A stretch of DNA of 64,000 nt from a virus (lineage: Duplodnaviria > Heunggongvirae > Uroviricota > Caudoviricetes), in IMG/VR virus record IMGVR_UViG_3300036885_000228, positions 30,368 to 94,367 of that record; one strand, written 5' to 3'. The notes under the pieces were generated by a model that did no database searches, was not told the DNA's origin, and worked only from the letters and a program-made list of their open reading frames with translations. A program made the translations under genes and the position numbers. Within the stretch, counting starts at the first letter, position 1, and every line of letters starts with the position of its first letter. Positions 16,825 through 58,738 of the stretch are shown here, one piece after another.

Positions 16825-16896
16825 TTCAAATAGCCTCATCCTTCTGGTAAGTATTAGCAATATTGAACCACCGCATGTTGCTAATCACTTATCAGA

Positions 16897-17838
16897 GTGA
16901 TGGGGCTATTCAAAAGTATGATAAAGACTTCTTATACAAAAAACTGGTTACCCTACAAATCGGCACTAAAATTACAATTTATCAATGCAGGATTGACAAA
17001 AGCATTTGATACAAATTTTTGCATTACTTTTTCTACTCTTTTTAGTATTGAAAATTTGATGAATTATAAAATTGCAAAAGGATTGTATTCTGTAGATGAT
17101 GTCAAATGGCTTAATGACAATGGGTACATGAAAAATGGATTAGTTGATTTTTCTCCAAGATTTACTGGAACTCTTGGCAATACTACAATTTATGGAAATA
17201 CTCAGTGGAACATCAGCAATTCAATTTATGCTTATGGTTTGATTCCAGAAAAAATGCATCCTAACATAGCAGATAATTGGGGTGAGTATTCTGACCATAT
17301 GTTAATAACTCAAGAAATGAAAGATTTAGGGCAAGAATTTTTGAAAAGATTTCAAATTGATATTGAACCTGCTACTGATCTTTCCAATTTAATTTATTCT
17401 CCACTCCAATGTATTGTAAAATTTGCAGATGGTGATGGAATACTCTCACCAAGTGGAAAGACAAATCATGGTGTTGAGATTATAGATGATGGAGACAGTT
17501 TAACTTATTGTGAAATTAAAGATTCATACTGGCAGGAAATTAAGAAATATGACCGAAGTAAAGTGTTCTATTTGCAAAATATTTTTATTAATTCAAAACA
17601 TACAACTATGGACACTCAAAATTTCATAGCAACTCATGAAAAGAAGATCATTTTTGAAGGTACTCCTGGTTCAAAGGGTAGATTTGGAATTATAATCAAT
17701 GGTCAAAATAGAGAAATAACTTCTGACAGAGCAGCTCAAGCATGTTTGTATGCCTTTGTAAATGCCAGGACTCTACCATTTGGTATAACAATCCAGACTG
17801 ATTTATTTGACTCAATTCCAAAGGGTAAAAACTTTTAG
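16897..17838 (+). CDS. Papain-like (C1-like) cysteine peptidase
   Basis: 313 aa. ..DTNFCITFSTLFSIEN.. resembles the papain CGSCWAFS nucleophile region. A later ..TNHGVEIIDDGD.. and ..KDSYWQE.. resemble the His and Asn/Trp segments. Confidence 0.5.
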   Translation: MMGLFKSMIKTSYTKNWLPYKSALKLQFINAGLTKAFDTNFCITFSTLFSIENLMNYKIAKGLYSVDDVKWLNDNGYMKNGLVDFSPRFTGTLGNTTIYGNTQWNISNSIYAYGLIPEKMHPNIADNWGEYSDHMLITQEMKDLGQEFLKRFQIDIEPATDLSNLIYSPLQCIVKFADGDGILSPSGKTNHGVEIIDDGDSLTYCEIKDSYWQEIKKYDRSKVFYLQNIFINSKHTTMDTQNFIATHEKKIIFEGTPGSKGRFGIIINGQNREITSDRAAQACLYAFVNARTLPFGITIQTDLFDSIPKGKNF

Positions 17839-17898: not shown

Positions 17899-18053
17899 TG
17901 TAGTTTACAAACTTTAATAAATATGTTATAATCAATTTATGGTTAAAAGATGTTAACTTGTTCAGTATCTTGAATTTTTTATTTATAAATGTTTATAAAA
18001 ATTCATTGTTAATAACTTCTAGATTAACCTAATATTAAACAAAATATCACCTA

Positions 18054-18082
18054 TTTACAAACCTTTACAAATGGTATATAAT
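18054..18082 (+). promoter_or_regulatory. Sigma70-like promoter TTTACA-N17-TATAAT inside 130-bp conserved element, copy A
   Basis: TTTACA 18054-18059, 17-nt spacer, TATAAT 18077-18082. Element A spans about 17949-18083. Confidence 0.6.
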
Positions 18083-18210
18083 GATTATAGGTGGTTGGAA
18101 AGAGGATAGTTCATTACAATTGAATAAACTTACAAACTTAAAAAAAATAACGATTCTTTCAATAGCAGAAAATTAAATTTTCTTCCTCTGAAAGAACAAC
18201 TCTAAAAAAT

Positions 18211-19486: not shown

Positions 19487-19592
19487 TTCAAAATAATAAC
19501 GGTTTGCCAGTGGCGGAGGATGACAAGCAGGTGGACGAGGTTATTCGTTATTTCCTTGTTCATCTCCTCCGCTGGTAGACTACAAAAATGTA

Positions 19593-21502: not shown

Positions 21503-22801
21503 ATGATATCAATTTCAAAAGATGCTAATAAAAATTATCTTGCAAAAATTGTAAGATTAGAAGGACTCAAAAAACATTCAAATGCTGACAAACTTCAAAC
21601 TGTCATTATTGATTTTCAGACAGTTATTACTGACATGAATGCAAAAGATGGAGATCTTTATGTGTTTTTTCCTCTTGAATGTCAGATTAACTTTGAATTT
21701 CTTGCACAAAATAATTCTTTTCGAGATAAAGAATTAAACAAAGATAAAACTCAATCTGGATTCTTTGAGAAGAATTGTCGAGTACGTGCAATGAAACTCA
21801 GAGGTGAAAGATCAATGGGCTATATAGTACCTATATCTGTAGTAGAAAAATTTACTAGAGATCATCTGAGTGACAGGGTTGGTAAAGAATTTGATACAAT
21901 TAATGACATTTTGTTGTTAAAGAAGTATGTTACGGTAGTTTCTCAGTCACAGCAAAGATTTCAAGGTAAGAAACCTCGAATTTCTAGACTTGTAGAAAAC
22001 CAATATCGGTTGCATATTGAAACAGAAAATCTTAAAAAGAATGCTTTTATGATTAAACCACAAGATGAGATAATGTTGAGTTACAAACTTCATGGGACCT
22101 CATTCATTGTCGGTCATGTGTTAGGTAAGAAAAAATTAAATATAATCGAGAAGACATTCAAAATATTAGGCATCAAAATTCTTGATACTGAATATGACTA
22201 TTTTTATGGAAGTAGAAAAGTTGTAAAGAATGAATTCGAGACTAAATTCAAAAATGATTTCTATGATGGAGACCTTTGGTTAGATATCAAAGACGAACTT
22301 AAAGACAAAATACCAAAGGGTTATACCGTCTATGGTGAATGTGTTGGATATACTAAAGGAGGCAAATATATTCAAACTCAATATGATTACGGGTGTGCAA
22401 TGGGACAAAAGAAATGTTATGTTTATAGAATTACTCATACGAATATAGATGGATATGTTGTAGATTTGTCAACTAATCAAATACGTGAATTCTGCATAAA
22501 GTATGGATTGAATTATATTCATGTATTTTTTCAAGGTCAAGCAGGAGAATTATATCCCGAACTCAATCCTGAGGAGTATTGGCATGAAGAGTTCATAAAA
22601 AATCTCGAAAGAGATTATACCGACAAAGATTGTTTCATGTGTAAAAATAAAGTTGCTGAAGAAGGAATTGTTCTACGAAAAGAAGGATTATTCTCTTTTG
22701 AAGCATATAAACTTAAATCGTTTCGTTTTTATGAATGGGAAACTTCTCAATTAGACAAAGAAGTTACTCGTCTTGAAGACGTGACTGGTTTTGACAATTA
22801 G
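21503..22801 (+). CDS. RNA ligase (Rnl2-like KxHG nucleotidyltransferase) with N-terminal tRNA-binding OB domain (Myf/CsaA/EMAP-like)
   Basis: N-terminus ..KKHSNADKLQTVIIDF..NAKDGDLYVFFPLEC..KLRGERSMGYIV matches the tRNA_bind signature (HPxADKL...GD.V..A..G...K.RG..S.GML). Motif I SYKLHGTSF resembles the T4 Rnl2 EKIHGTNF. Later ..YGECVGY.. and ..EEGIVLRKEG.. resemble motifs IV and V. Confidence 0.6.
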   Translation: MISISKDANKNYLAKIVRLEGLKKHSNADKLQTVIIDFQTVITDMNAKDGDLYVFFPLECQINFEFLAQNNSFRDKELNKDKTQSGFFEKNCRVRAMKLRGERSMGYIVPISVVEKFTRDHLSDRVGKEFDTINDILLLKKYVTVVSQSQQRFQGKKPRISRLVENQYRLHIETENLKKNAFMIKPQDEIMLSYKLHGTSFIVGHVLGKKKLNIIEKTFKILGIKILDTEYDYFYGSRKVVKNEFETKFKNDFYDGDLWLDIKDELKDKIPKGYTVYGECVGYTKGGKYIQTQYDYGCAMGQKKCYVYRITHTNIDGYVVDLSTNQIREFCIKYGLNYIHVFFQGQAGELYPELNPEEYWHEEFIKNLERDYTDKDCFMCKNKVAEEGIVLRKEGLFSFEAYKLKSFRFYEWETSQLDKEVTRLEDVTGFDN

Positions 22802-23384: not shown

Positions 23385-23870
23385 ATGAAATATTTTTTTA
23401 CAAGTGATGAACATTTTGGACATATGAGGATAATTGAATATTGTAATCGTCCATTTAAAGATGTGAAAGAGATGGATGATGAGATAATCAAAAGATTTAA
23501 TTCTGTAGTTTCTCAAGAAGACATAACTTATCATCTTGGAGATTTTACTTTTAGAAAGAAAAATGAAGCAGAAAATTATATCAGACGAATGCATGGCCAA
23601 CATATTTTTATAAAGGGGTCTCACGATTATTGGGCAGAAAAAGACAATTTACCATATATAATTGAAACTAAAATTGATGATGTACAATTAGTATTATGTC
23701 ATTATCCACTTAAGTCGTGGCCTGCATCATTTCATGGGAGTGTAAACATATTTGGTCATGAACATGGTGTATTAACGAATTTAGAACCTAGACAACTTGA
23801 TGTTGGAGTTGATACTAATAATTTCTATCCTTATTCACTAGAAGACGTAATCAAAAAATTAAAATTATGA
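23385..23870 (+). CDS. Calcineurin-like metallophosphoesterase
   Basis: Motifs FTSDEHFGH, HLGDF, GSHDYW and FGHEHG. Confidence 0.7.
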   Translation: MKYFFTSDEHFGHMRIIEYCNRPFKDVKEMDDEIIKRFNSVVSQEDITYHLGDFTFRKKNEAENYIRRMHGQHIFIKGSHDYWAEKDNLPYIIETKIDDVQLVLCHYPLKSWPASFHGSVNIFGHEHGVLTNLEPRQLDVGVDTNNFYPYSLEDVIKKLKL

Positions 23871-24194: not shown

Positions 24195-24350
24195 ATAAAA
24201 AATCAAATATGCAATAGAATTGGTTGTAATAAAGAAATTGAAGGAGAAGGAATCATAACTTCAGTCGGTATTTTTTGTTCTGAAGAATGTAGAAAAGAAA
24301 TAGAGAAAAAGCTAATTAAATTATTTATAGATTTTCCAATTAATTTATGA
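24195..24350 (+). CDS. Small zinc-ribbon protein (51 aa, below cutoff)
   Basis: MIKNQICNRIGCNKEIEGEGIITSVGIFCSEECRKEIEKKLIKLFIDFPINL. Its stop overlaps the Pnk start (ATGA). Confidence 0.35.
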   Translation: MKNQICNRIGCNKEIEGEGIITSVGIFCSEECRKEIEKKLIKLFIDFPINL

Positions 24351-25213
24351 AACAGAAAATAATAATGACAAAAGGATTAATTGCATCAGGAAAAACGACT
24401 TGGGCAAAAGAGCAAGTAAAGAAAAGTAATGGAAAAATTAAAAGAATAAATAAGGATGATTTAAGACAGATGTTGCATAATTCTGAATATCCTATTTGGA
24501 AAGAAGACAAAGATAGATTTATCTTAGATGCTAGAGATGCATTAATCAAACAGTCAATACTTTCAGGATTTTCTATTATCGTCGATGATACAAATTTCAA
24601 TCCATTTCATGAAAAACGATTAAAAGTACTTGCTATAGAACTTAATGCCGATTTCGAGATCAATGATAGTTTTTTGAATGTACCATTGAGTGTATGTATT
24701 GAACGAGATTTTAAAAGAGAAAAACCTGTAGGAAATAAAGTCATTTCTGAAATGTATAACAAATATGTCAAAGGTCGAGAATATATTCAAAAAGATGAAT
24801 CATTACCTAAAGCAATAATTTGTGACATTGATGGAACACTAGCACTTTCAACTGGAAGAAATATTTTTGACTGGTCAAAAGTACACACAGATGAAGTGAA
24901 TCACATGGTTGCTAGAGTAATTAATCTATTCAAAAAAGAAGGATATAAAATTCTTATCACTACTGGAAGAGATGGTGAATGTGAAGAACAAACTAAAAAA
25001 TGGTTGAAAGATAATCTAATTGATTTTGATGAATATTATACTCGTCCTGCTGGAAATAATGAAAAAGATTGCATAATCAAAGAGAGAATTTATCGTCAAG
25101 AAATTTTACTAAAGTACAATGTGATATTGTGTCTTGATGACAGGAACCAGGTAGTTGAGACTTGGCGTAAATTAGGTTTAGAATGCTGGCAGGTTCAGGA
25201 CGGGTCATTTTAA
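24347..25213 (+). CDS. pseT: Polynucleotide 5'-kinase/3'-phosphatase (T4 Pnk-like)
   Basis: P-loop GLIASGKTTWA. HAD motif ICDIDGTLA. The C-terminus ..LCLDDRNQVVETWRKLGLECWQVQDGSF closely parallels the T4 Pnk C-terminus ..[25 protein letters not shown]. Confidence 0.85.
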   Translation: MKQKIIMTKGLIASGKTTWAKEQVKKSNGKIKRINKDDLRQMLHNSEYPIWKEDKDRFILDARDALIKQSILSGFSIIVDDTNFNPFHEKRLKVLAIELNADFEINDSFLNVPLSVCIERDFKREKPVGNKVISEMYNKYVKGREYIQKDESLPKAIICDIDGTLALSTGRNIFDWSKVHTDEVNHMVARVINLFKKEGYKILITTGRDGECEEQTKKWLKDNLIDFDEYYTRPAGNNEKDCIIKERIYRQEILLKYNVILCLDDRNQVVETWRKLGLECWQVQDGSF

Positions 25214-25495
25214 TTTGTAAATGTTAGAAAGAATGACATCTGGATGACATCTAGAAAGGAAAACTAGACAAAATATAGGAATATATGACTGACATATAGA
25301 CCAATATCTGACATCAATCTGATGACAACAGAATAATACTGAATCTTAACTTATAGAATATATGATACTAGAATCCGTTAAACTAGAAAGTTATTAACTT
25401 TTCATGAACACTTGAATTTTTTTTATTTATAAATGTTTGTAAGATTCACTGTTAATAACTTCTAGACTTGTTTAATATTAAACAAAAATTCACCT

Positions 25496-25524
25496 ATTTA
25501 CAAACACTTATAAATTTGTTATAA
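25496..25524 (+). promoter_or_regulatory. Promoter TTTACA-N17-TATAAT inside conserved element copy B
   Basis: TTTACA 25496-25501, TATAAT 25519-25524. Element B spans about 25387-25527. It points into an ORF-free region. Confidence 0.6.
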
Positions 25525-25530
25525 TGAATC

Positions 25531-26360
25531 TATACAGTTAAATAAGTTCATTGATACTTTCTACTGGTCAAACCTTTCTAGGGTGATTGGTAAAAGTTTT
25601 GAAAATACAGAGAGTACAACATAGAGATAGAAACCATTTTTCGGCTTAGTCCGAAAACCAGTCTCATAGTTGTACTTTCCACTCTTTTCAGAACATTACA
25701 ATATTAGTCTATTAATTGTCATTCTTAATTGCTGGAGATTATGTCAAAAGCTCCCTGGTAAGTCCTGCAGGACTGAACGGGCAAGGGTATGACATCATGC
25801 ATATCATTTAAGAATGTCAACTAGTAGATTAAGTACTTTTCAAATGTGGGATTTTGAGGCGTTGTTGATAGGTTGCTTATGCGTAAAAGACTGTTAAGTT
25901 CAAACTCAAACTTATCAGTTGCCTATCTGTAAAAAGGAGAAAGTAAGAATAGGGGATACCTTATTTTTATATAGCTCCACCGCAAAAGGATTTAGCGACA
26001 AAGAGTTTGAGTCGCCAGTAGGGGCACCCGAGAAAATCTCTCAAACCCTCACATTTGCAAGGTACAGGTAAGTTCTTTAATGGAAGAAAAAATACAGTGA
26101 AACCCAACTCAAGATGAGCGGTTCTCGCTAATCAAAGTTGCAACTAAGATTAGTAAACTGTACATAAAAAATCTAACTCCCCGTCAAAGGAGAGAGATGA
26201 TACACCTTCCTGAAATGCCTTTAAAATAATCCTGCTTTTTTTAGCAATAGGTTTGGCTGTCAATTGGGACCTATCATCTATGTGGAACGTTAAGGCGGTC
26301 GGCATGGTTTTGAAAAATTAAATCAACGACTTAGCTGTTCTATTCTTCCATTAAAGAATT
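25531..26360 (+). ncRNA. Candidate large structured noncoding RNA (unclassified)
   Basis: ~0.85 kb with no ORF of 60 aa or more on either strand, in a genome that is otherwise about 95% coding. Visibly GC-richer than its flanks. Many local hairpins (e.g. gtcctgcaggac, agcgacaaagagtttgagtcgc, tgacat..atgtca, gtttgc/gcaaac-like). A strong promoter lies immediately upstream. Confidence 0.4.
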
Positions 26361-26382
26361 TATCAAAATCAAAACAAAAATT

Positions 26383-26868
26383 ATGAAAAAGAGTATTACA
26401 ATTGAACTTATCATTTTAGGAGTTCTATTATTTCCAGTTTTTACATCATTTGCTGATGAGTCAGACAATTATTACAGAGCACATTTACCAATGAATCGAA
26501 GTATTCTCCCAAGATCACATGACAAACCTTATCGTATTAGTGATAAGAAATTAGTTACTGAATTTCCAGCAATAATTACAGCATACAATCTTGGAGACGT
26601 AAATCAAAATGATAGTACTCCTTGCACCGGTGCTTTTAATGAAGATCTCTGTAATTCAATAAATAATGGAGAACTCTTGGTTGCTAATAATTATTATTTA
26701 CCAGGTACATTAGTCTGTATTGACAAAGTTGGCTGCGGACGTATTGCAGATCGAATGAATTCACGTTATGACAAAGATCATTTTGATATTGCAATGTCAA
26801 AAGATGATTATCTAAAAGCTATCAAATTTGGTGCACCGAAATTAATTGTTAGAATTTATAAAAAATAA
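26383..26868 (+). CDS. Secreted 3D-domain protein (MltA/YuiC-like)
   Basis: N-terminal signal peptide. C-terminus ..YYLPGTLVCIDKVGCGRIADRMNSRYDKDHFDIAMSKDDYLKAIKFG fits the conserved-Asp 3D domain pattern. Confidence 0.55.
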   Translation: MKKSITIELIILGVLLFPVFTSFADESDNYYRAHLPMNRSILPRSHDKPYRISDKKLVTEFPAIITAYNLGDVNQNDSTPCTGAFNEDLCNSINNGELLVANNYYLPGTLVCIDKVGCGRIADRMNSRYDKDHFDIAMSKDDYLKAIKFGAPKLIVRIYKK

Positions 26869-27170: not shown

Positions 27171-27359
27171 ATGTCAATAGTTCAAATTGTAATGATATCT
27201 CTCATTGTAAGTTGTATGATTTTTGTGTCATACGACTTAGGTTGTTTATGGGGTTTAAAACGAGAAAAAAAAGTAATCGAAATACTGGGAGAAACAATTA
27301 ATGAATGGAAAAAAAGTACTGACTATTTTATTAAAGTCATTAATGATTTAACAAAATAA
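27171..27359 (+). CDS. Small single-TM membrane protein
   Basis: 62 aa with an N-terminal hydrophobic helix. Confidence 0.35.
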   Translation: MSIVQIVMISLIVSCMIFVSYDLGCLWGLKREKKVIEILGETINEWKKSTDYFIKVINDLTK

Positions 27360-27804: not shown

Positions 27805-28689
27805 ATGTGTGCAAAACTCGTGTATGAAAACAGTATCAAGATTGTACCATTGGAAAAACTTTTTCCAGACCCAAAACAACCAAGAAAAGAGTTCTTTGAG
27901 AAAGAAATGAAGAAATTACAAATGTCAATCAAAGACAGAGGAATCATGACTCCAATAGTTGTGGAGAAAATGAAAGATGGAAAGTATCTAATTGTCGATG
28001 GTGAAAGACGTTATCGGAGTGCTAAATTTCTTGGAATGAAAGAAGTTCCAATAAATATTATCACTGAGGACTTGGATGATGTAGACAGAAACATTGTCAG
28101 ATTTCAATTGCAGGAAACACATTCGCAATGGACTGTAATGGAAAAAGCTCAAGCAATTCTATTGCTTAAACAAGCATTAGATTTAACTACAAAAGATTTA
28201 GCAAAAGCTATTGGTATTCCAGAAGCAACTGTTTCACAGTATTTAATGCTTTTAGATTTTTCACCAAGAGTTAAAAGTATTCTCATTGAAATGAATATGA
28301 GAATGTCGTATATTCTTGCTTTATCTTCAATGCATAAAGTTTTTCCGGTTGAAATTTCAAAGAAATATCCAGATTACGTTGAATTAGCAATTGACAAGTT
28401 CAAAAATGGTTATATCAAAACTTACAAAGACTACATTGATATCCGTCGGTTGATTTTAGCAGGTGAATATAAATACGTCGAAAAATGGTTAACTAATAAG
28501 ACGTATACTTCTGATCAGGCAATGAATGATTCGACTTTCAATTTAAGTGTAAGAGTTGAGAAAGCAATACATAAAGCAAAAGGTGTAATTCGTGAACTTT
28601 CTGTTATTCATAAGAATAAATTGAAAATTTCTGAATTTGACATTTTAGTTTTGACGAAATTAAGAGACGAAATAAACCAACTAATTTAG
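27805..28689 (+). CDS. ParB/Sulfiredoxin-domain protein (ParB-like nuclease/partition)
   Basis: ..MTPIVVEKMKDGKYLIVDGERRYRSAKFLG.. carries the classic ParB N-terminal GERR motif. Confidence 0.7.
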   Translation: MCAKLVYENSIKIVPLEKLFPDPKQPRKEFFEKEMKKLQMSIKDRGIMTPIVVEKMKDGKYLIVDGERRYRSAKFLGMKEVPINIITEDLDDVDRNIVRFQLQETHSQWTVMEKAQAILLLKQALDLTTKDLAKAIGIPEATVSQYLMLLDFSPRVKSILIEMNMRMSYILALSSMHKVFPVEISKKYPDYVELAIDKFKNGYIKTYKDYIDIRRLILAGEYKYVEKWLTNKTYTSDQAMNDSTFNLSVRVEKAIHKAKGVIRELSVIHKNKLKISEFDILVLTKLRDEINQLI

Positions 28690-29112: not shown

Positions 29113-29784
29113 GTGGACTGTGTCAGCAGTGCATGGATTCGATATTTGATTAATATGATATTCAAAGATAAAGAAAAATGGAGAAAGAATCTTAGTATAT
29201 CATTGAAAGGCAAACCGAATAAAATGAAAGGTAAGAAATTGAATTTGTCTGATGATCAAAGAAAAAATAGAAGTGAAAAAGCTAAAATTTCAGCAAGTCT
29301 TCCTAAAAATAGAAAAATTTTTCTAGAATCAATACAAAAAGTATTATTAGATCCAATCCGTCGAGAAAATAGAAAGAAAAAAATTCAACAAACAATTAAA
29401 CGAAAATTAGAAGATGGGACATGGTACATTTGGAAAACTAGAAACATTCGAAGTTTTCCAGAATTATTTGTTGAAAAATTTCTATCTAAACATAATATCA
29501 AATTTGAATCAGAAAAATATATTTCAAGAAAAGAATTAGGAATAGATAAAAAACAAGGTGGATATTTTCTTGACTTTTATTTACCTGACAATATGATTGA
29601 TTTAGAAATAGATGGAAGCCAACATGAACAACCTGAAAGAAAATTAAGTGATACTAAAAGAGATAAATTATTAACAAATGCAGGATTTAAAGTCGTAAGA
29701 ATTAAATGGACGACAATCAAAAATGATACTGGTTCAAAATACATCTTTGATCAATTAAATTCTGTAATAAAATGTCAAAAATAA
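29113..29784 (+). CDS. Homing-endonuclease-like protein (NUMOD3-like repeats plus DUF559/Vsr-like PD-(D/E)xK domain)
   Basis: N-terminal repeats (..SISLKGKPNKMKGKKL.., ..SEKAKISASL..). The C-terminus ..YFLDFYLPDNMIDLEIDGSQHEQPERKLSDTKRDKLLTNAGFKVVRIKW matches the DUF559 endonuclease pattern. Confidence 0.5.
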   Translation: MDCVSSAWIRYLINMIFKDKEKWRKNLSISLKGKPNKMKGKKLNLSDDQRKNRSEKAKISASLPKNRKIFLESIQKVLLDPIRRENRKKKIQQTIKRKLEDGTWYIWKTRNIRSFPELFVEKFLSKHNIKFESEKYISRKELGIDKKQGGYFLDFYLPDNMIDLEIDGSQHEQPERKLSDTKRDKLLTNAGFKVVRIKWTTIKNDTGSKYIFDQLNSVIKCQK

Positions 29785-31007: not shown

Positions 31008-31323
31008 GAATTTATGGTAAATTAATTTTGACAAATAAATATTCTAGAGAGGTCTCAGAAGTGATGAAATCGGTTGAATTATAGAATATATGTCTTTTAC
31101 TTGTACTATTCAACAGGGTCATTCTGAGGTCATCAGTATAATTATACTTTAATACCAATGAAATGAATATGCTCAAAATCACAAACATTATCGAAAACAC
31201 CATTCGTCTTGGAAGGGAGAAGGTTAAATCTTTCGTGTCTGTTTGTGGACATTGAGCCTCTTCTAAGACGAGTGGTTTTTTTGATTTTAAGAAAGTATTG
31301 AAGAATGTATTATTAATGTAAGA

Positions 31324-34237: not shown

Positions 34238-34355
34238 AGAGATATTTGGCAAGGTTTTTTTCTTGCCATTTTCTCTACCTGGGTGATGTACAGACTTGAT
34301 GTCCCTTTTAAGTCTTTGGCCACATCATCTAGGTTGAGAAGATTATCAAATTAAT

Positions 34356-41639: not shown

Positions 41640-42055
41640 GTAAGAAATTAAGAAAGAATGGGACATTTGTAGTTTCAGTTGCTGCAGAATATGACATGAC
41701 TGGAAATGAAGACATTTTAATTGTTGCAGTTGACAGTATAAAAATAAGAAAGAACATAGCAAAGAAGTTAATCAAAAATGATCATTGGCCAAAGTACATC
41801 ATTGATGGTAGAATGGGATTGGAACAAATGGAAATATATACATATAGATCCCCAATGACCTGGTTGAATGATTTACCAGATGAAAATAATGTAGACCATG
41901 AACCTTGTACTGCTAAAGCAATTGCATATAATACATCAGTAATTGGTGGATTGATATCTAGCATCATTAAAAAGATAATAAAAGGTGAGAAATTTCCACA
42001 GAGTATCATATTTGATTTGATTACATATACAGCAATTATTCAGTCTGAATCTTAA
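41396..42055 (+). CDS. E1-like activating enzyme (ThiF/MoeB/HesA family)
   Basis: N-terminal RYLRQ. ..ISIVGCGGIGSWTGYVLSKLGIANITLFDFDIVESKNLASQFF.. fits the Rossmann GxGxxG plus D.D.V..SNL.RQ-like motif. Confidence 0.7.
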   Translation: MEIKDQDRYLRQSDVFTPPDSKSTQISIVGCGGIGSWTGYVLSKLGIANITLFDFDIVESKNLASQFFDTTDIGKNKAIALGKKLRKNGTFVVSVAAEYDMTGNEDILIVAVDSIKIRKNIAKKLIKNDHWPKYIIDGRMGLEQMEIYTYRSPMTWLNDLPDENNVDHEPCTAKAIAYNTSVIGGLISSIIKKIIKGEKFPQSIIFDLITYTAIIQSES

Positions 42056-42128
42056 TATTTATAAATGTTTGTAAAATTGAAGATTTCATTTAGTTGAATT
42101 TGTTTAATATTAGATAAGAACTGGCCTA

Positions 42129-42157
42129 TTTACAAACCTTTACAAATGTGTTATAAT
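42129..42157 (+). promoter_or_regulatory. Promoter TTTACA-N17-TATAAT inside conserved element copy C
   Basis: TTTACA 42129-42134, TATAAT 42152-42157. Element C spans about 42055-42168. Confidence 0.6.
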
Positions 42158-42203
42158 GATTATAGGTAGTTCATTGACAACTGAATAGAGCTTATAAAAA
42201 TGT

Positions 42204-42917
42204 ATGGTCATTAAAAATTCTACACCTTGGTCAACTTCAGACATAAAAGCGGTTTTCCGCAGATGTGTCAAAGAAGTTGAGAAGGTAAGGCGGCCAAAAC
42301 TTCCATTTCATAGGAAGAACAAACATTTCAAACTTGACATTCTAAATGGAACTCATTGGAGTGGTCGAGCAACGGTAAATGGCTATTGGATAATGGCAAG
42401 AATTCCACGAGAATGGAGTATTAAACGAGAGATGCCATCTAAACCAAATGAGATTGATTTAGAAAATAAATACAATGTCTATTGGGTAGATGGAAAGAAC
42501 TCTTCGTCAGCAATGAGAATACCATTTGGTCAGGAGGAAGATATCAAAAATTATCCAAGTTATTGGCCAATTGTTGGAAATGAGAATGAAATTTCTTATG
42601 ATAACAAAGTGCAATTTGCAAGAATTCTCATTCATGAATATTTTCATTCAATTGGGTATGGTTATGAAGATATCGATCATCATAATTATGCGCATGACTT
42701 TACTAATAAATGGAATGTTGATTGGATAAAAGAATATCCAATACGAATCAAAGAAAAACAAAAAGGAAAGACCACTGATGAAAAATTTCAGTTAAAGTAT
42801 GATCGTGCAGTTGTTAATTTTAGGAGATCTGAAACTCGTCTAAAACGAGCAAAGACTATTTTTAACAAATGGCAACGAAAGGTCTCATATTACGAGACAA
42901 AAGTAGGTAAGAAATAA
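42204..42917 (+). CDS. Putative zinc metallopeptidase (HExxH)
   Basis: ..ARILIHEYFHSIGYGYEDIDHH.. has an HEYFH motif with downstream His residues. Confidence 0.45.
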   Translation: MVIKNSTPWSTSDIKAVFRRCVKEVEKVRRPKLPFHRKNKHFKLDILNGTHWSGRATVNGYWIMARIPREWSIKREMPSKPNEIDLENKYNVYWVDGKNSSSAMRIPFGQEEDIKNYPSYWPIVGNENEISYDNKVQFARILIHEYFHSIGYGYEDIDHHNYAHDFTNKWNVDWIKEYPIRIKEKQKGKTTDEKFQLKYDRAVVNFRRSETRLKRAKTIFNKWQRKVSYYETKVGKK

Positions 42918-52815: not shown

Positions 52816-53313
52816 ATGATAAGAGGTACTCATCATTCTAAAGTATCGAAATTAAAAATTAGTGTTTATCGTACAGGGAAAAAACATTCAACAGAAACGC
52901 GATTAAAGATATCGGCAAACCATAAAGGAATGTTAGGGAAAACATTTAGTGAAGAATCAAGAAAAAAAATTGGATTAGGAAATAGTGTCTATATAGGAGA
53001 AAAAAATTCAAGATGGATAAAAGACAGAAGTTTTCTAATTTATCCTGATGAATGGAAAGAAGAGTTAAAAGATTCAATTCGGAAGAGAGATAATTACACT
53101 TGTAAAATGCCTGGATGTGTCATTCATCAAAATGAACTTAAAGGAAGATTCAAGAAACTCGATGTTCACCATATTGACTATAATAAGAAAAACCTTAATC
53201 CAAATAATCTTGTTACTCTTTGCAGAAAGCATCACATTAAAACAAATTCAAATAGAAAATATTGGAAAGAATTTTTTTATAAAATAATTAAAAATATAAT
53301 AATCTGGAAGTGA
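52816..53313 (+). CDS. HNH homing-endonuclease-like protein with NUMOD-like repeats
   Basis: ..ETRLKISANHKG.. and ..EESRKKIGLGNS.. repeats. C-terminal ..LDVHHIDYNKKNLNPNNLVTLCRKHH (HNH). Confidence 0.6.
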   Translation: MIRGTHHSKVSKLKISVYRTGKKHSTETRLKISANHKGMLGKTFSEESRKKIGLGNSVYIGEKNSRWIKDRSFLIYPDEWKEELKDSIRKRDNYTCKMPGCVIHQNELKGRFKKLDVHHIDYNKKNLNPNNLVTLCRKHHIKTNSNRKYWKEFFYKIIKNIIIWK

Positions 53314-53392: not shown

Positions 53393-54856
53393 ATGAGCAA
53401 GTTTAACAAAAAAAAGTTAGGAACAAAGACAATCAATAAAGCAGGAGGTCAAGCATTTAAGGAGACTACTGAGTTAGAACTCGTTTCTCTTTTACTTACT
53501 TCTTTCTTAAAGGACAAATTTTACGAAAAAGAAGAAGAGCAATTAGAAAGATTGCAGAATTTAGTCGGTGGGTTAAAAGACAAAAAATTTGCTGCTAAAG
53601 CTGCAATTTATGCTCGTACAGTTTTTGGAATGAGATCAATTACTCATGCATTGATTGGAGAAATTTGTAAGATGGTCAAAGGTGAACAATGGGTTAAGAA
53701 TGCAGTAGAAAAAGCAGTTTATCGTCCTGATGACATGCTTGAAATTCTTGCTTATGTTAGAGACGATAAAACTACACCAATTCCAAATTCATTGAAAAAG
53801 GGATTAAGATTAGCAATCAATAAGTTTGACAAGTATTCTTTAGCTAAGTATAAAGGAGGAGGACACGAATTCAAAATGGTCGATTTAATTAATTTAGTAC
53901 ATCCAAAAGGTTCTGGTAAATTGGCTGAAATTTTTAAAGAATTAGTTGAAGGGAAATTGAAGACTGAAAATACTTGGGAAAGAAATTTATCAGATGCTGG
54001 ACAAAAAGTTAAAGATATTGAAGACGAAAATGAGAAAGAGGAAGCATTGAAAGAAGCAAAGGATAATGTCTGGAAAGACATGATTAAGGAAAAGAAAATT
54101 GGAACATTTGCTTTATTGAGAAATCTTCGTAACATTGTTCAGCAATCTCCAGATTCAATTGACGATGCTTGTGAATTACTTGTTGATGAAAAGAAAATTA
54201 AAAATTCATTGATTCTGCCTTTTAGATTCAAAACTGCAATGGACGAATTAGGTAAGGTAGATGGTAGTAGGAAAATTTTAACTGCAATTAGTAAAGCATT
54301 GGATATTTCAGTTTCAAATGTGCCAAAATTTGATGGGAAGACTCTTGTAGTAATTGATAAATCTGGTTCGATGAATGGGAAACCAATAGAAATTGCTTCT
54401 ATCTTTGGTGCAATATTATACAAATCAAATGATGCAGATTTAATGTATTTTTCTGAAGGTACAAAGAATGTCAATCTTAATACCGAGGATAGTACAATGA
54501 CAATTGCTAATGAGATTGAACACGATGGTTGGGGTGGAGGAACTGATTTTACTGTAATTTTTCCAGCACTTACAAAAAAGTATGATAGGATTATAATCTT
54601 AAGTGATATGCAAGGTTGGGTTAATGATTGGAGAGGAGAATCAACACCAATAAGAGGATTTAGAGATTATAAAATAAGACTTGGTATCAATCCGAAGATT
54701 TATTCATTCGATCTAAACGGGTATGGGACACTTGAGTTCCCCGAGAATGATGTATTCTGCATTGCAGGATGGAGTGATAAAATTTTTGATGTAATGAAGA
54801 TTATGGAACAAGATAGAAATGCATTAATTAAAAAGATAAACGAAATTGAACTTTAA
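53393..54856 (+). CDS. rsr: Ro60 orthologue (TROVE domain plus vWA domain)
   Basis: N-terminus MSKFNKKKLGTKTINKAGGQAFKETTELELVSLLLTSFLKDKFYE...AAIYARTVFGMRSITHAL is TROVE-like. C-terminus ..LVVIDKSGSMNG.. is the vWA MIDAS DxSxS motif. Total 487 aa, as expected for Ro60. Confidence 0.75.
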   Translation: MSKFNKKKLGTKTINKAGGQAFKETTELELVSLLLTSFLKDKFYEKEEEQLERLQNLVGGLKDKKFAAKAAIYARTVFGMRSITHALIGEICKMVKGEQWVKNAVEKAVYRPDDMLEILAYVRDDKTTPIPNSLKKGLRLAINKFDKYSLAKYKGGGHEFKMVDLINLVHPKGSGKLAEIFKELVEGKLKTENTWERNLSDAGQKVKDIEDENEKEEALKEAKDNVWKDMIKEKKIGTFALLRNLRNIVQQSPDSIDDACELLVDEKKIKNSLILPFRFKTAMDELGKVDGSRKILTAISKALDISVSNVPKFDGKTLVVIDKSGSMNGKPIEIASIFGAILYKSNDADLMYFSEGTKNVNLNTEDSTMTIANEIEHDGWGGGTDFTVIFPALTKKYDRIIILSDMQGWVNDWRGESTPIRGFRDYKIRLGINPKIYSFDLNGYGTLEFPENDVFCIAGWSDKIFDVMKIMEQDRNALIKKINEIEL

Positions 54857-54869
54857 AAATATATTTGAG

Positions 54870-55200
54870 AAGTGAGAAAACGGGTTCATCTATTGAATTA
54901 ACATTCAATGTATTCTGGTTTGCGTAAGCAAACTCTGAAATTACTGAATAATTGCCAGCGGCAATTGTTTTAACATCACGACATGTAATGGGACGCAACA
55001 TGGTCAGTAAACTACTGATTCAAAGTTTTTAGAGTTATTTTTACTAATTCTAATTCAAAACTTAGTCTAGTAAGGAGACTTAATCCCACCGTTTTCAGTT
55101 TTCTCTCAAATATTATCTGGATTAGAATTTACATAGTTCCGAAAGTGAGAATAAAGTTACTTCTCCTTATGAAAATACTTTATTCACTTTTTCTTCGGGA
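54870..55200 (+). ncRNA. Structured noncoding region downstream of rsr (candidate second Y-RNA-like/ncRNA)
   Basis: No ORF. Several clean hairpins: attgaat-taac-attcaat, gtttgc-gtaa-gcaaac (GNRA loop), aattgcc-agc-ggcaatt, agtct-agtaagg-agact. Confidence 0.3.
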
Positions 55201-55204
55201 CAAT

Positions 55205-55275
55205 GCGACTGTAAGATAATGGCAATCTGACAGTTTTCCAAACTGTAAACGTGGGTCCGATTCCCACTAGTCGCA
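55205..55275 (+). tRNA. tRNA-Gly(UCC)
   Basis: Acceptor gcgactg/tagtcgc. D arm agat-aatggca-atct. Anticodon arm acagt-tttccaa-actgt (anticodon tcc). T arm gtggg-tccgatt-cccac with an unusual C at position 55. Discriminator a. No encoded CCA. Confidence 0.7.
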
Positions 55276-55294
55276 CAAAATTGTTTATTTGTAC

Positions 55295-55431
55295 GTGAAT
55301 AGAAGTGACATCAGAGTTACTTCTCATTGTAAGAGAGTGGTCATTGGTTCGAGTCCAATTTTTAGTCGAAAGGCTAAAATAGCTCAGTTGGTAGAGCACT
55401 TAAATTTCTCTGATAAATTTTCTCTATTCAC
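55295..55431 (+). ncRNA. Y-RNA-like RNA with tRNA-like module (T arm plus GAAA-capped acceptor-like stem plus D arm), closed by long terminal helices
   Basis: T arm attgg-ttcgagt-ccaat (55343-55359). Stem ttttagtc / GAAA loop / ggctaaaa (55360-55379). D arm gctc-agttggta-gagc (55382-55397). No anticodon arm follows. Terminal helix gtgaataga(55295-55303)/tctattcac(55423-55431) and inner helix atcagag(55310-55316)/ctctgat(55408-55414). Lies 440 nt downstream of the Ro60 gene. Confidence 0.55.
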
Positions 55432-55449
55432 TTATAAGTAAATAATCAA

Positions 55450-57725: not shown

Positions 57726-57925
57726 ATGTTTCAGATGATCGATTGTATTGGGCATATAAGAATATATGTACATTGACAATTTTATTCACTGAGGTCATTC
57801 TGGTGACAACAGCAAATAAGCAAGATGAGGTGGTATGGGCCTGGGGTCTGGAGTCGGATTAGTAAGACATCGCATTTGCATTGCGAAAATAACGGGTGCA
57901 ATTCCCGTCAGATCCACATCTCATT

Positions 57926-58522
57926 ATGCATTATATAATCTATAAAACTACAAATCTTGTCAATGGAAACTTTTATATTGGATATCATTCAACGAATAAT
58001 TTAGATGATAAGTATTTAGGTTCTGGTAAATTGTTAAGATTAGCAATTAATAAATACAATATTGATAAATTTAAAAAAGAAATATTGTTTATATTTGATA
58101 CAAAAGAAGAAGCATTATTGAAAGAAAGAGAAGTTGTCAATCCTGATTTTATTAAACGTAATGATGTATATAATGTCAAGTACGGTGGAGAGGGTGGTTG
58201 GGAGCATACATGGTATGATAAAAGACGATATGATGCATGGAGAAAAGTAAATAAAGGATGGTCTATGACATTTGAAAAAAGAAGTAAGTTATTTTTAGGA
58301 AAGAATAATGGAATGTATGGAAAAAAACAAAGTTCAGCAATGAAAGAACGGATGAAGTTAAATCAAATACTTGATAAAGGAATTTTAGCACAAAGATTAA
58401 ATGATTATAATACTATCGAAAAGAAATATGGATGGAAAACGAAATTGGCAAGAAAATGGAATATTTCGCATACTCAAGTTTGTCGATTTATTAAGAAATA
58501 TGTCAAGTACGAAAAAACGTAG
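57926..58522 (+). CDS. GIY-YIG homing endonuclease
   Basis: MHYIIYKTTNLVNGNFYIGYHSTNN...YLGSG is a GIY...YIG module. The ORF-track start 57896 adds 10 aa of GC-rich leader. Confidence 0.75.
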   Translation: MHYIIYKTTNLVNGNFYIGYHSTNNLDDKYLGSGKLLRLAINKYNIDKFKKEILFIFDTKEEALLKEREVVNPDFIKRNDVYNVKYGGEGGWEHTWYDKRRYDAWRKVNKGWSMTFEKRSKLFLGKNNGMYGKKQSSAMKERMKLNQILDKGILAQRLNDYNTIEKKYGWKTKLARKWNISHTQVCRFIKKYVKYEKT

Positions 58523-58575: not shown

Positions 58576-58598
58576 AATAGATTATCAATCTATTTTTT
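58576..58598 (+). terminator. Weak AT-rich hairpin plus T-run
   Basis: aatagat-tatca-atctatt followed by tttt. Confidence 0.3.
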
Positions 58599-58671
58599 AT
58601 TTGTAAATGTTTATAAAAATTCACTGTTAACAACTTCTAGATTTACCTAATATTAAATAAAATATTACCTA

Positions 58672-58700
58672 TTTACAAACATTAACAAATGTGTTATAAT
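58672..58700 (+). promoter_or_regulatory. Promoter TTTACA-N17-TATAAT inside conserved element copy D
   Basis: TTTACA 58672-58677, TATAAT 58695-58700. Element D spans about 58595-58703. Confidence 0.6.
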
Positions 58701-58738
58701 GAATATAATTAAACATATAATTTAATAATCAAGAATGT

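What the first reader, a model, noticed from the sequence alone, without database searches (positions are those of the whole stretch)
25531..26360. ~0.85-kb promoter-driven, ORF-free, GC-richer segment packed with hairpins: candidate large ncRNA
Intergenic gaps elsewhere in this genome are tens of bp. Here about 1.17 kb between Pnk and the next CDS contains no ORF of 60 aa or more on either strand. A full copy of the conserved promoter element (TTTACA-N17-TATAAT at 25496-25524) points into it. The downstream sequence is visibly GC-richer than the flanks and has many short perfect inverted repeats. Examples: gtcctgcaggac; agcgacaaagagtttgagtcgc; tgacatcatgcatatcatttaagaatgtca; ggag..ctcc pairs; cgaaaacc/ggcttagtccg. 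The size and context (next to an RNA repair module in a phage) recall large ornate phage-associated RNAs (GOLLD/ROOL-type), but I cannot match it to any known class from sequence alone. It could also be a decoy or substrate RNA related to the adjacent repair genes.
Basis: partly seen in the sequence, partly recalled or inferred. Interest (0 to 1): 0.7.

Follow-up and report, generated by a model that had tools for sequence, protein, structure and literature searches.

The report
Candidate large structured phage RNA
An uncultivated phage carries, after its RNA-repair genes, a promoter-driven ~0.83-kb gene-free stretch that folds into four tightly base-paired domains and matches no known RNA family, so it is probably a new large non-coding RNA, though only its first domain has comparative support.

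Summary
The 1169 nt between Pnk and the next gene is the largest non-coding gap in the window. It has no ORF above 51 aa, 13-22 stops per frame and no Pfam trace. Its GC is 0.38-0.40 against 0.31 overall. It follows one of nine copies of the phage's own promoter.

On the + strand, 25532-26362 folds into four adjacent closed domains, D1-D4. Each has z of -5 to -7, always stronger than on the - strand. The excess folding energy is the largest of 44 same-size windows.

Only one diverged relative could be found (L020, Pnk 75% identical). It keeps D1 at 84% nt identity, above the 78% of the Pnk coding sequence. D1 shows 3 compensatory and 3 wobble-compatible changes. Such pair-sparing arose in 6 of 100,000 random placements of the substitutions.

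L020 then has a different, shorter structured domain followed by a tRNA. So D1 is not tied to the downstream gene.

Rfam 15 gives nothing, including GOLLD, ROOL, introns, Y RNA, tmRNA and RNase P.

Verdict: probable new multi-domain structured phage RNA. D2 and D4 rest on one sequence alone. Function is unknown. The GOLLD/ROOL membership idea is rejected.

The same phage also encodes a Ro60/Rsr protein with Y-like RNAs.

The parts
25214..25386 (.). Conserved non-coding leader between the Pnk stop and the promoter element. It carries a cluster of four TGACAT motifs (25234-25314) and is not RNA-structured.
   Evidence: 81% nt identity to L020 and 79% to L021, at least as high as the Pnk CDS at 75-78%. 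Fold z=-1.7. TGACAT x4 in 80 nt against 0.8 per kb in the window.
25387..25527 (+). Promoter-upstream element of about 130 nt, repeated in the genome. It includes the promoter.
   Evidence: 76-84% identical copies at 17946-18084, 42056-42159 and 58593-58707.
25497..25525 (+). Sigma-70-type promoter TTTACA-N17-TATAAT with TG-extended -10. The inferred transcription start is about 25532.
   Evidence: 11 of 12 consensus match. It is one of 9 copies of the same extended motif and is conserved in L020. The start site is inferred, not shown.
25532..26362 (+). Candidate structured non-coding RNA of four adjacent closed domains.
   Evidence: MFE -247 kcal/mol, z -7.2 to -7.8, with 267 bp (141 AU, 96 GC, 30 GU) and 64% of bases paired. 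Domain-closing helices have pair probability above 0.96. No Rfam match. No protein trace.
25553..25700 (+). Domain D1, the conserved core. Hairpin P1 is 25562-25592. The long interrupted hairpin P2 is 25596-25694, with helices 25596-25605/25685-25694, 25610-25620/25669-25679, 25624-25628/25661-25665 and 25638-25644/25651-25657.
   Evidence: z=-5.1 (+) against -2.4 (-). 84% identical to L020 2022-2179. 43 consensus pairs with 3 compensatory, 3 one-sided and 0 broken. Permutation test on the window-only fold.
25704..25832 (+). Domain D2, a long imperfect hairpin with the palindromic apex GUCCUGCAGGAC. It is not alignable in L020.
   Evidence: z=-6.9 (+) against -4.2 (-). 43-nt arms, 74% complementary. 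Single-sequence evidence only.
25833..26065 (+). Domain D3, a multibranch domain closed by helices 25833-25839/26059-26065, 25841-25850/26048-26057 and 25853-25859/26039-26045. Its 3' junction is AGUA-GGGGCACCC-GAGAAAAUC.
   Evidence: z=-5.4 (+) against -3.5 (-). Helices. L020 has a shorter multibranch domain in the same position, with similar closing strands and the motifs CUGUAAAAA and AGUA-GGGnnnCCC-GAAAAUC. This rests on reading by eye. MAFFT plus RNAalifold did not reproduce it.
26069..26362 (+). Domain D4, a multibranch domain closed by a 19-bp helix (26069-26087/26344-26362). It contains a hairpin with the palindromic apex GUUGCAAC. In L020 a tRNA gene follows D3 at this position.
   Evidence: z=-5.9 (+) against -3.4 (-). 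20-nt arms, 95% complementary. Closing helix pair probability above 0.98. L020 tRNA.
26383..26868 (+). Downstream 161-aa protein of unknown family. It starts 20 nt after D4 and is probably co-transcribed with the RNA.
   Evidence: ORF. No Pfam or PHROG family. No + strand terminator-like site between the promoter and 27208.
27208..27249 (+). First + strand intrinsic-terminator-like site downstream of the promoter.
   Evidence: 13-bp stem followed by a T-rich tail.

Best explanation
The segment 25532-26362 (+) is most likely a phage non-coding RNA gene.

Proposed steps:
- Host RNA polymerase starts at the phage's consensus promoter (inferred).
- The transcript folds co-transcriptionally into four independently closed domains (predicted).
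- D1, and probably the frame of D3, form the conserved functional core. D2 and D4 are lineage-specific expansions.

The same core sits behind a small ORF and in front of a tRNA in the relative L020. I therefore think it acts as a discrete, stable, probably processed RNA particle working in trans. That is the mode of the large phage-borne RNAs GOLLD and ROOL and of the stable RNAs of the T4 tRNA cluster. I do not think it is a leader that controls the gene behind it.

The molecular target is unknown. The phage invests heavily in RNA repair and quality control: RNA ligase, phosphoesterase and Pnk next door, and Ro60/Rsr plus Y-like RNAs and tRNAs elsewhere. The most plausible role is therefore in RNA-level conflict with the host, as a scaffold or decoy for RNA-acting proteins. 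That last step is speculation.
For: Non-coding:
- No ORF above 51 aa, 13-22 stops per frame and no Pfam match in six frames.
- A 1-nt indel and non-periodic substitutions in the conserved part.

Transcribed in the + direction (inferred):
- A consensus promoter, one of 9 copies, conserved in L020.
- All neighbouring genes are on the + strand.

Structured as RNA:
- z=-7.2 to -7.8 for the whole segment, and -5.1 to -6.9 for each of the four domains.
- The + strand is always stronger than the - strand.
- 30 G-U pairs.
- GC raised to the level of the phage's tRNA genes.
- Largest excess folding energy among 44 windows of 830 nt.

Under selection for pairing (D1 only):
- 84% nt identity to L020, against 78% for the Pnk CDS.
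- On the fold predicted from the window alone, 11 stem substitutions give 3 compensatory doubles (CG>UA, AU>GC, GC>AU), 3 wobble-compatible singles and only 2 broken end pairs.
- Two or fewer broken pairs occurred in 6 of 100,000 random placements. Three or more compensatory changes had P=0.006.

Not tied to the downstream gene:
- In L020 the RNA follows a 54-aa ORF and precedes a tRNA.
- Homologs of the 161-aa protein elsewhere lack the RNA.
- L020's non-alignable second domain is itself strongly structured, z=-6.8.
Against: - Comparative support rests on one diverged sequence and covers only D1 (148 of 830 nt). D2 and D4 have single-sequence evidence only.
- All 13 loci (8-9 distinct contigs) from JGI and Logan samples that cover this phage are 100% identical over the part of the gap they cover, so they are uninformative.
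- There is no expression data.
- There is no terminator between the RNA and the next gene. As sequence alone shows it, this is the 5' 830 nt of an mRNA. Processing is assumed.
- Strong local structure is not unique in this genome.
- D2, D3 and D4 are each bounded by long inverted repeats, which also fits inserted palindromic elements.
- Nothing links the RNA functionally to the repair genes. The three more distant Pnk-encoding phage contigs examined lack it after Pnk.
Confidence: 0.55

Rival explanations
1. It is a long, highly structured 5' leader acting in cis on the promoter-proximal operon (161-aa and 106-aa genes). It might protect the mRNA 5' end from RNases, or set transcription, antitermination or translation levels.
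For: No + strand terminator lies between the promoter and 27208, so the RNA and the two genes are one predicted transcription unit. D4 ends 20 nt before the ATG.
Against: The conserved core (D1) is followed by a tRNA and preceded by an ORF in L020, so it is not coupled to this gene. Homologs of the 161-aa gene in five other contigs have no such leader. 830 nt in four closed domains is far more than known 5' stabilisers need (general knowledge). The 20-nt A-rich spacer before the ATG is left unpaired, like other gene starts of this SD-less phage.
Confidence: 0.2
2. Only D1 (with a small D3 frame) is functional. D2 and D4, and the interior of D3, are inserted palindromic or MITE-like elements or other fast-evolving filler whose hairpins are a by-product.
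For: D2, D3 and D4 are each bounded by long inverted repeats: 43 nt at 74%, 26 nt at 81% and 20 nt at 95%. D4's arms are flanked by TA...TA (read by eye). D2 and D4 are absent or unalignable in L020.
Against: The RNA body has no second copy anywhere in the 64-kb window, nor in the phage, IMG/VR, JGI or GTDB scans that were run. Each domain folds better on the + than on the - strand, which a DNA palindrome does not require. The interiors are multibranched, not simple hairpins.
Confidence: 0.15
3. It is a DNA-level element, such as a replication origin, a partition site or a packaging site. Transcription from the promoter might serve to open or prime the DNA, as in T4 oriF/oriG or ColE1 RNA II.
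For: A promoter fires into an ORF-free region. Repeated motifs lie in the conserved leader. A ParB-family gene lies 1.4 kb downstream.
Against: The body is richer in GC than the genome, not an AT-rich unwinding element. Folding is strand-asymmetric and has 30 G-U pairs. D1 changes include GU<->GC switches that matter only in RNA. The body has no iterons.
Confidence: 0.07
4. The region is tiled by small protein genes or is a decayed pseudogene.
For: Several 27-51-aa ORFs exist. One 51-aa minus-strand ORF was called by automatic annotation in 3 public contigs.
Against: Most of these ORFs start with TTG. None is conserved in L020, where a 1-nt indel and non-periodic changes occur. There are 13-22 stops per frame and no Pfam hit at E<=0.1 in any frame.
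Confidence: 0.03

Closest known systems
GOLLD (RF01998) and ROOL (RF03087) large ornate RNAs
   Same: All are several hundred nt long, multi-domain, phage- or prophage-borne and of unknown function. GOLLD and ROOL are often next to tRNA genes; here this holds in the relative L020. According to PMC12286853 they act as free RNA particles that form homo-oligomers.
   Different: There is no sequence or structure match to either covariance model, even at E<=10. In the window the nearest tRNA is 29 kb away. Oligomerisation is untested. The only hint is two palindromic hairpin apices (CCUGCAGG, GUUGCAAC), which may be chance.
Stable RNAs of the phage T4 tRNA cluster (species 1 and 2, rnaC/rnaD); from my own knowledge
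   Same: These are phage-encoded, structured stable RNAs of unknown function. They are co-transcribed with tRNAs and released by processing, in a phage that also has Pnk and RNA ligase.
   Different: The T4 species are only about 120-140 nt. No homology was tested, because no model was available. The window copy is not in a tRNA cluster.
Bacterial and phage Y RNAs (YrlA, RF02553) bound by Ro60/Rsr
   Same: The same phage encodes a TROVE/Ro60 protein and a YrlA-like RNA. Y RNAs are long-stem RNAs linked to RNA repair operons (PMC4201824, PMC12135203). D1 is likewise a long interrupted stem.
   Different: The YrlA model does not match the finding. D1 lacks the tRNA-like module. It also lacks the internal loop (5' AGUGA / 3' A.UUUUC) shared by this phage's three Y-like stems (by eye). 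It is 28 kb from rsr. At 830 nt it is far longer than the 80-130 nt of Y RNAs.
ColE1 RNA II and T4 oriF/oriG origin transcripts; from my own knowledge
   Same: A promoter-driven, ORF-free, structured transcript.
   Different: There is no adjacent AT-rich unwinding region and no origin evidence. The body is GC-enriched.

Membership tests
GOLLD RNA (RF01998) | Match to the family covariance model (sequence plus consensus structure) | tested here: not met
   cmscan of the whole window at gathering score, and of 25100-26500 at E<=10 with permissive filters. No hit.
GOLLD / ROOL | Typical location next to tRNA genes in phage or prophage DNA | tested here: inconclusive
   In the window the nearest tRNA is at 55205. 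In L020 a tRNA directly follows the RNA.
ROOL RNA (RF03087) | Match to the family covariance model | tested here: not met
   no hit.
GOLLD / ROOL | Homo-oligomeric RNA-only assembly (PMC12286853) | not testable with these tools
   This needs native gels, SEC-MALS or cryo-EM of the transcript.
Group I / group II introns | Match to the Intron_gpI, Intron_gpII or group-II-D1D4 models, and interruption of a host gene | tested here: not met
   No hit at E<=10. Pnk and the downstream ORF are both complete and unrelated.
Y RNA / YrlA (RF02553) | Ro-binding stem plus tRNA-like module, encoded near Ro60/rsr | tested here: not met
   No YrlA hit in 25100-26500. The same model finds 55297-55432 at 41.8 bits next to the TROVE gene. 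D1's internal loops differ from that motif (by eye).
tmRNA, RNase P RNA, 6S, OLE, HEARO, raiA, riboswitches | Match to the respective Rfam model | tested here: not met
   and ARAGORN.
MITE or palindromic repeat element | Multiple dispersed copies with terminal inverted repeats | tested here: not met
   Inverted repeats are present. There is no second copy in the 64-kb window. The host genome is unknown and was not searched.
Structured non-coding RNA (generic) | Base pairing maintained by compensatory substitutions in homologs | tested here: met
   D1 only. It has 3 compensatory and 3 wobble-compatible changes. Two or fewer broken pairs occurred in 6 of 100,000 permutations. D2-D4 were not testable because there is no alignable homolog.
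Structured non-coding RNA (generic) | Detected transcript with defined ends | not testable with these tools
   There is no expression data. The promoter is a consensus match only.

The most novel reading that the evidence does not exclude
This may be the founding member of a new class of large (>0.8 kb), multi-domain 'ornate' phage RNA, unrelated to GOLLD, ROOL, OLE or HEARO. It would be released from a polycistronic transcript and would work together with the phage's unusually rich RNA repair and quality-control set (RNA ligase, Pnk, phosphoesterase, Ro60/Rsr with Y RNAs). Possible roles are an RNA scaffold, or a decoy that absorbs host anticodon nucleases or other RNA-targeting defences.
Probability: 0.25. 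Interest if true: 0.8.

Novelty: new variant of a known kind. Interest (0 to 1): 0.58.

Why it matters
To my knowledge, bacterial and phage non-coding RNAs longer than about 500 nt with complex folds are few, and those with known functions perform sophisticated biochemistry. GOLLD, ROOL and OLE remain functionally unexplained, even though their structures are solved (PMC12286853).

A further, unrelated large RNA in a phage that also carries RNA ligase, Pnk, Ro60/Rsr and Y-like RNAs would add a new case. Here the genomic context points to RNA damage, repair and host-defence conflict, which may make the function easier to approach.

The claim is limited by the rarity of the lineage. Only one informative relative was found, and the host is unknown. 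At present this is a well-supported candidate, not a class.

Tried and rejected
Searches for homologs that found nothing:
- blastn, near and distant, against 50,697 phage records: no match.
- IMG/VR by flanking proteins: nothing.
- IMG/VR by five DNA patterns: two gave only chance hits, three gave nothing.
- JGI metagenome scans: the leader 21-mer gave 0 hits, and the 3-anchor D1 pattern gave 1 chance hit in a bacterial gene. That collection evidently lacks even the samples that hold this phage.
- GTDB genomes: 1 chance hit in Psychromonas.

Protein-guided routes:
- Exact-protein look-ups returned only 100% identical copies of the gap.
- Homologs of the 161-aa protein (L014-L019) carry no related RNA.
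- Pnk relatives at about 50% identity (L029, L032, L033) have no such RNA after Pnk.
- A D1 covariance model found no further copy in 209 kb of fetched DNA.

Failed tricks and tests:
- I queried the protein database with concatenated spurious ORFs of the RNA region, hoping to catch mis-called ORFs in relatives. It returned nothing and used the last protein search.
- MAFFT plus RNAalifold on mini-constructs of the D3 closing helix mis-aligned. The D3 homology therefore remains a hand alignment.

Ideas considered and rejected:
- Pseudogene or small genes.
- A dispersed repeat.
- A Y RNA.
- An intron.
- A first whole-window z-score scan timed out and was redone at coarser settings.

Full report
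**Context.** The window is an AT-rich (31% GC) tailed-phage genome fragment with essentially all genes on the + strand. It has no close relative among cultured phages. No DNA match was found, and its family-B DNA polymerase is at most 26% identical to any INPHARED record. Upstream of the finding lie an RNA ligase (21503-22801), a phosphoesterase (23385-23870) and a bifunctional polynucleotide kinase/phosphatase (24347-25213). Downstream lie a 161-aa protein of no known family (26383-26868), a 106-aa protein and a ParB-family protein (27805-28689).

**Observation check.** The 1169 nt between Pnk and the next gene hold no ORF longer than 51 aa. This is the largest + strand ORF-free stretch of the window; the others are 150-430 nt. 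A TTTACA-N17-TATAAT promoter with a TG-extended -10 lies at 25497-25525. It is one of nine copies of a longer phage-specific motif. It sits inside a roughly 130-nt element repeated at about 17.9, 42.1 and 58.6 kb. GC rises to 0.38-0.405 at 25600-26300 from 0.24-0.30 in the flanks, which matches the phage's tRNA cluster. The quoted inverted repeats are all there.

**Anatomy.**
- Folded as RNA, 25531-26360 gives -246.7 kcal/mol, z=-7.2 on the + strand and z=-4.4 on the - strand.
- The fold resolves into four adjacent, independently closed domains:
  - D1 25553-25700: hairpin P1 plus a long interrupted hairpin P2.
  - D2 25704-25832: a long imperfect hairpin.
  - D3 25833-26065: a multibranch domain closed by 24 bp in three helices.
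  - D4 26069-26362: a multibranch domain closed by a 19-bp helix.
- Each domain has z between -5.1 and -6.9 on the + strand and a weaker z (-2.4 to -4.2) on the - strand. The 317-nt leader upstream is unstructured, z=-1.7.
- The MFE has 267 pairs, 30 of them G-U. The domain-closing helices have ensemble pair probabilities above 0.96.
- Among 44 windows of 830 nt, the target has the largest excess folding energy, -58.7 kcal/mol against a background of -9.1 +/- 13.7. The next is a coding region at 42.0-42.8 kb (-41.6), then the tRNA cluster (-35.5).
- At the 200-nt scale the region is not unique. Several long terminator-like hairpins score as well. The argument therefore rests on the size and modular organisation, not on z alone.

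**Not protein-coding, not a repeat.** Every frame has 13-22 stops in 284 codons. Six-frame translations hit no Pfam family at E<=0.1. The RNA body has no paralog elsewhere in the window; only the promoter element is repeated.

**Homologs.**
- The 13 loci (8-9 distinct contigs) from JGI and Logan samples that carry this phage are 100% identical over the part of the gap they cover, so they add nothing.
- The only informative relatives came from Pnk homologs: L020 (Pnk 75% identical) and L021 (72%; its contig ends at the promoter).
- L020 keeps the leader and the promoter. It then has a 54-aa ORF that the window lacks, then a clear homolog of D1 (L020 2022-2179). After that comes a non-alignable but equally structured multibranch domain of about 170 nt (z=-6.8 for 2020-2350), then a tRNA gene cut by the contig end.
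- Nucleotide identity between the window and L020 is 77.7% for the Pnk CDS, 80.9% for the leader, 78.3% for the promoter element and 83.8% for D1. D1 is thus at least as constrained as coding sequence.

**Covariation in D1.**
- The RNAalifold consensus has 43 pairs. Three have compensatory double changes (CG>UA, AU>GC, GC>AU), three have one-sided wobble-compatible changes, and none is broken.
- To avoid circularity I mapped L020's 27 substitutions onto the fold predicted from the window sequence alone. Eleven fall in stems, and only 2 pairs at helix ends break.
- Random placement of the same substitutions gave two or fewer broken pairs in 6 of 100,000 trials, and three or more compensatory pairs with P=0.006.
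- This is two-sequence evidence, but it is specific to RNA-level pairing, because it includes GU<->GC switches.

**D3 by eye.** L020's second domain has closing strands similar to those of D3: UAUCUUUUGAGAGUUUGGA / CCAACUUCCCAAAAGAU against UACUUUUCAAAUGUGGGA / CUCACAUUUGCAAGGUA. It also shares the motifs CUGUAAAAA and AGUA-GGGnnnCCC-GAAAAUC just before the 3' closing strand. A hand alignment keeps pairing through 4 double changes with 2 breaks. MAFFT plus RNAalifold could not reproduce this, so I treat it as a lead. D2 and D4 have no counterpart in L020.

**Known families.** cmscan against all 4227 Rfam 15 families found only the seven tRNAs of the window at gathering score. In 25100-26500 at E<=10 it found only a meaningless plant miRNA hit. 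GOLLD, ROOL, OLE, HEARO, raiA, group I and II introns, tmRNA, RNase P and YrlA are therefore excluded as far as covariance models can tell. No match exists in INPHARED, IMG/VR, the JGI metagenome collection or GTDB genomes with the patterns tried. A D1 covariance model found no further copy in all fetched DNA.

**Transcription unit.** There is no terminator-like site on the + strand between the promoter and 27208-27249. As far as sequence shows, the RNA is the first 830 nt of a transcript that also carries the 161-aa and 106-aa genes. The phage's genes lack Shine-Dalgarno sequences and start in A-rich unpaired context, as does this one, 20 nt after D4.

Two facts argue against a gene-specific leader. 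Homologs of the 161-aa gene in other contigs have no such RNA. In L020 the conserved core lies between an ORF and a tRNA. A downstream tRNA implies RNase P processing, from established knowledge, which would free the RNA's 3' end there.

**Best explanation.** I conclude that this is a non-coding RNA gene whose conserved core is D1, and probably the D3 frame. D2 and D4 are lineage-specific additions. It most likely acts as a discrete folded RNA in trans. That it is a structured RNA under selection is shown for D1. Transcription, processing and trans action are inferred. Any role with the neighbouring repair enzymes is speculative: Pnk-encoding phage contigs at about 50% Pnk identity lack it.

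**Rivals.**
- A cis-acting stabilising or regulatory leader (0.2).
- A functional D1 plus inserted palindromic filler (0.15).
- A DNA-level origin or partition element (0.07).
- Small genes or a pseudogene (0.03).

**Side finding that colours the context.** The same phage encodes a TROVE-domain Ro60/Rsr protein (53393-54856). It is followed by a 593-nt structured non-coding stretch (z=-7.3). That stretch contains tRNA-Gly and a full-length but sub-threshold YrlA (Y RNA-like) match at 55297-55432 (41.8 bits, E=8e-8), with a permuted tRNA-like module. By eye, two more stems share its internal loop. Phage Ro60 with Y RNAs is a known combination (PMC4201824, PMC12135203). The finding's D1 does not share that motif and is not a Y RNA. 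Even so, the phage clearly invests in RNA repair and quality control.

**Novelty and score.** This is not a member of any described RNA family. In kind it resembles the large phage-borne ornate RNAs of unknown function. With one informative homolog, an unknown host and no expression data, it is a good candidate rather than an established class. Interest is 0.58.

Noticed in passing
window 53393-55449: A Ro60/Rsr-like protein (TROVE + vWA, 487 aa, 53393-54856) is followed by a 593-nt structured non-coding stretch (z=-7.3). The stretch holds tRNA-Gly (55205-55276) and a YrlA/Y RNA-like match (55297-55432, 41.8 bits, E=8e-8, below the gathering score of 69) with a permuted tRNA-like module. By eye, two further Y-like stems (about 54861-55110 and 55138-55203) share the loop 5' AGUGA / 3' A.UUUUC. 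A phage Ro60 plus Y RNA module is known (PMC4201824, PMC12135203). Up to three Y-like RNAs here would be notable.
   Followed up: partly
window 25214-25386: The non-coding leader between Pnk and the promoter element is 79-81% identical in L020 and L021, at least as conserved as the Pnk CDS. It is unstructured as RNA and carries four TGACAT motifs within 80 nt. It may be a regulatory protein-binding region. It remains unexplained.
   Followed up: partly
window 17946-18084, 25387-25527, 42056-42159, 58593-58707: A promoter-upstream element of about 130 nt is repeated at least four times at 76-84% identity. Each copy ends in the consensus promoter, which has nine copies in all. These repeats probably explain why public contigs of this phage break near 25.47-25.55 kb.
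   Followed up: partly
window ~16860-16900, ~19500-19580, ~31195-31245, ~34260-34350: Very long GC-rich hairpins (up to about 35 bp) give 200-nt fold z-scores of -5 to -6.8. Some are followed by T-runs. They are presumably terminators or RNA-stability elements.
   Followed up: partly
window 42001-42830: The region behind the promoter at 42129 has the second-largest excess folding energy of the window (-41.6 kcal/mol, z=-8.1). It overlaps a 237-aa ORF (42204-42917) with no PHROG family match.
   Followed up: no
window, gene starts throughout: None of 32 inspected gene starts has a Shine-Dalgarno sequence. The upstream regions are A/T-rich. This suggests a host lineage with SD-independent initiation. 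The host is unknown.
   Followed up: no
L020 1856-2020 and 2356-2418: The relative has a 54-aa ORF inserted between the promoter and the RNA, with no homolog in the window. A tRNA, cut by the contig end, lies directly after the RNA. By eye its anticodon may be UCA, which reads UGA; this was not verified.
   Followed up: partly
L033 3712-5053: A lambdoid-like phage contig (NinG, N-antiterminator) has a 1.3-kb non-coding gap with one tRNA, just upstream of two small ORFs and its own RNA ligase-Pnk pair. Another large non-coding stretch near an RNA repair module. No sequence similarity to the finding was seen with the D1 model.
   Followed up: no
L014 1579-2306, L019 253-324: Homologs of the 161-aa downstream protein in unrelated phage contigs sit directly beside tRNA genes.
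   Followed up: no
window 29113-29784, 52816-53313, 57896-58522: Probable free-standing nuclease genes of homing-endonuclease type: DUF559/restriction-endonuclease-like, NUMOD3 + HNH, and GIY-YIG. The last two flank the Rsr and tRNA region.
   Followed up: no
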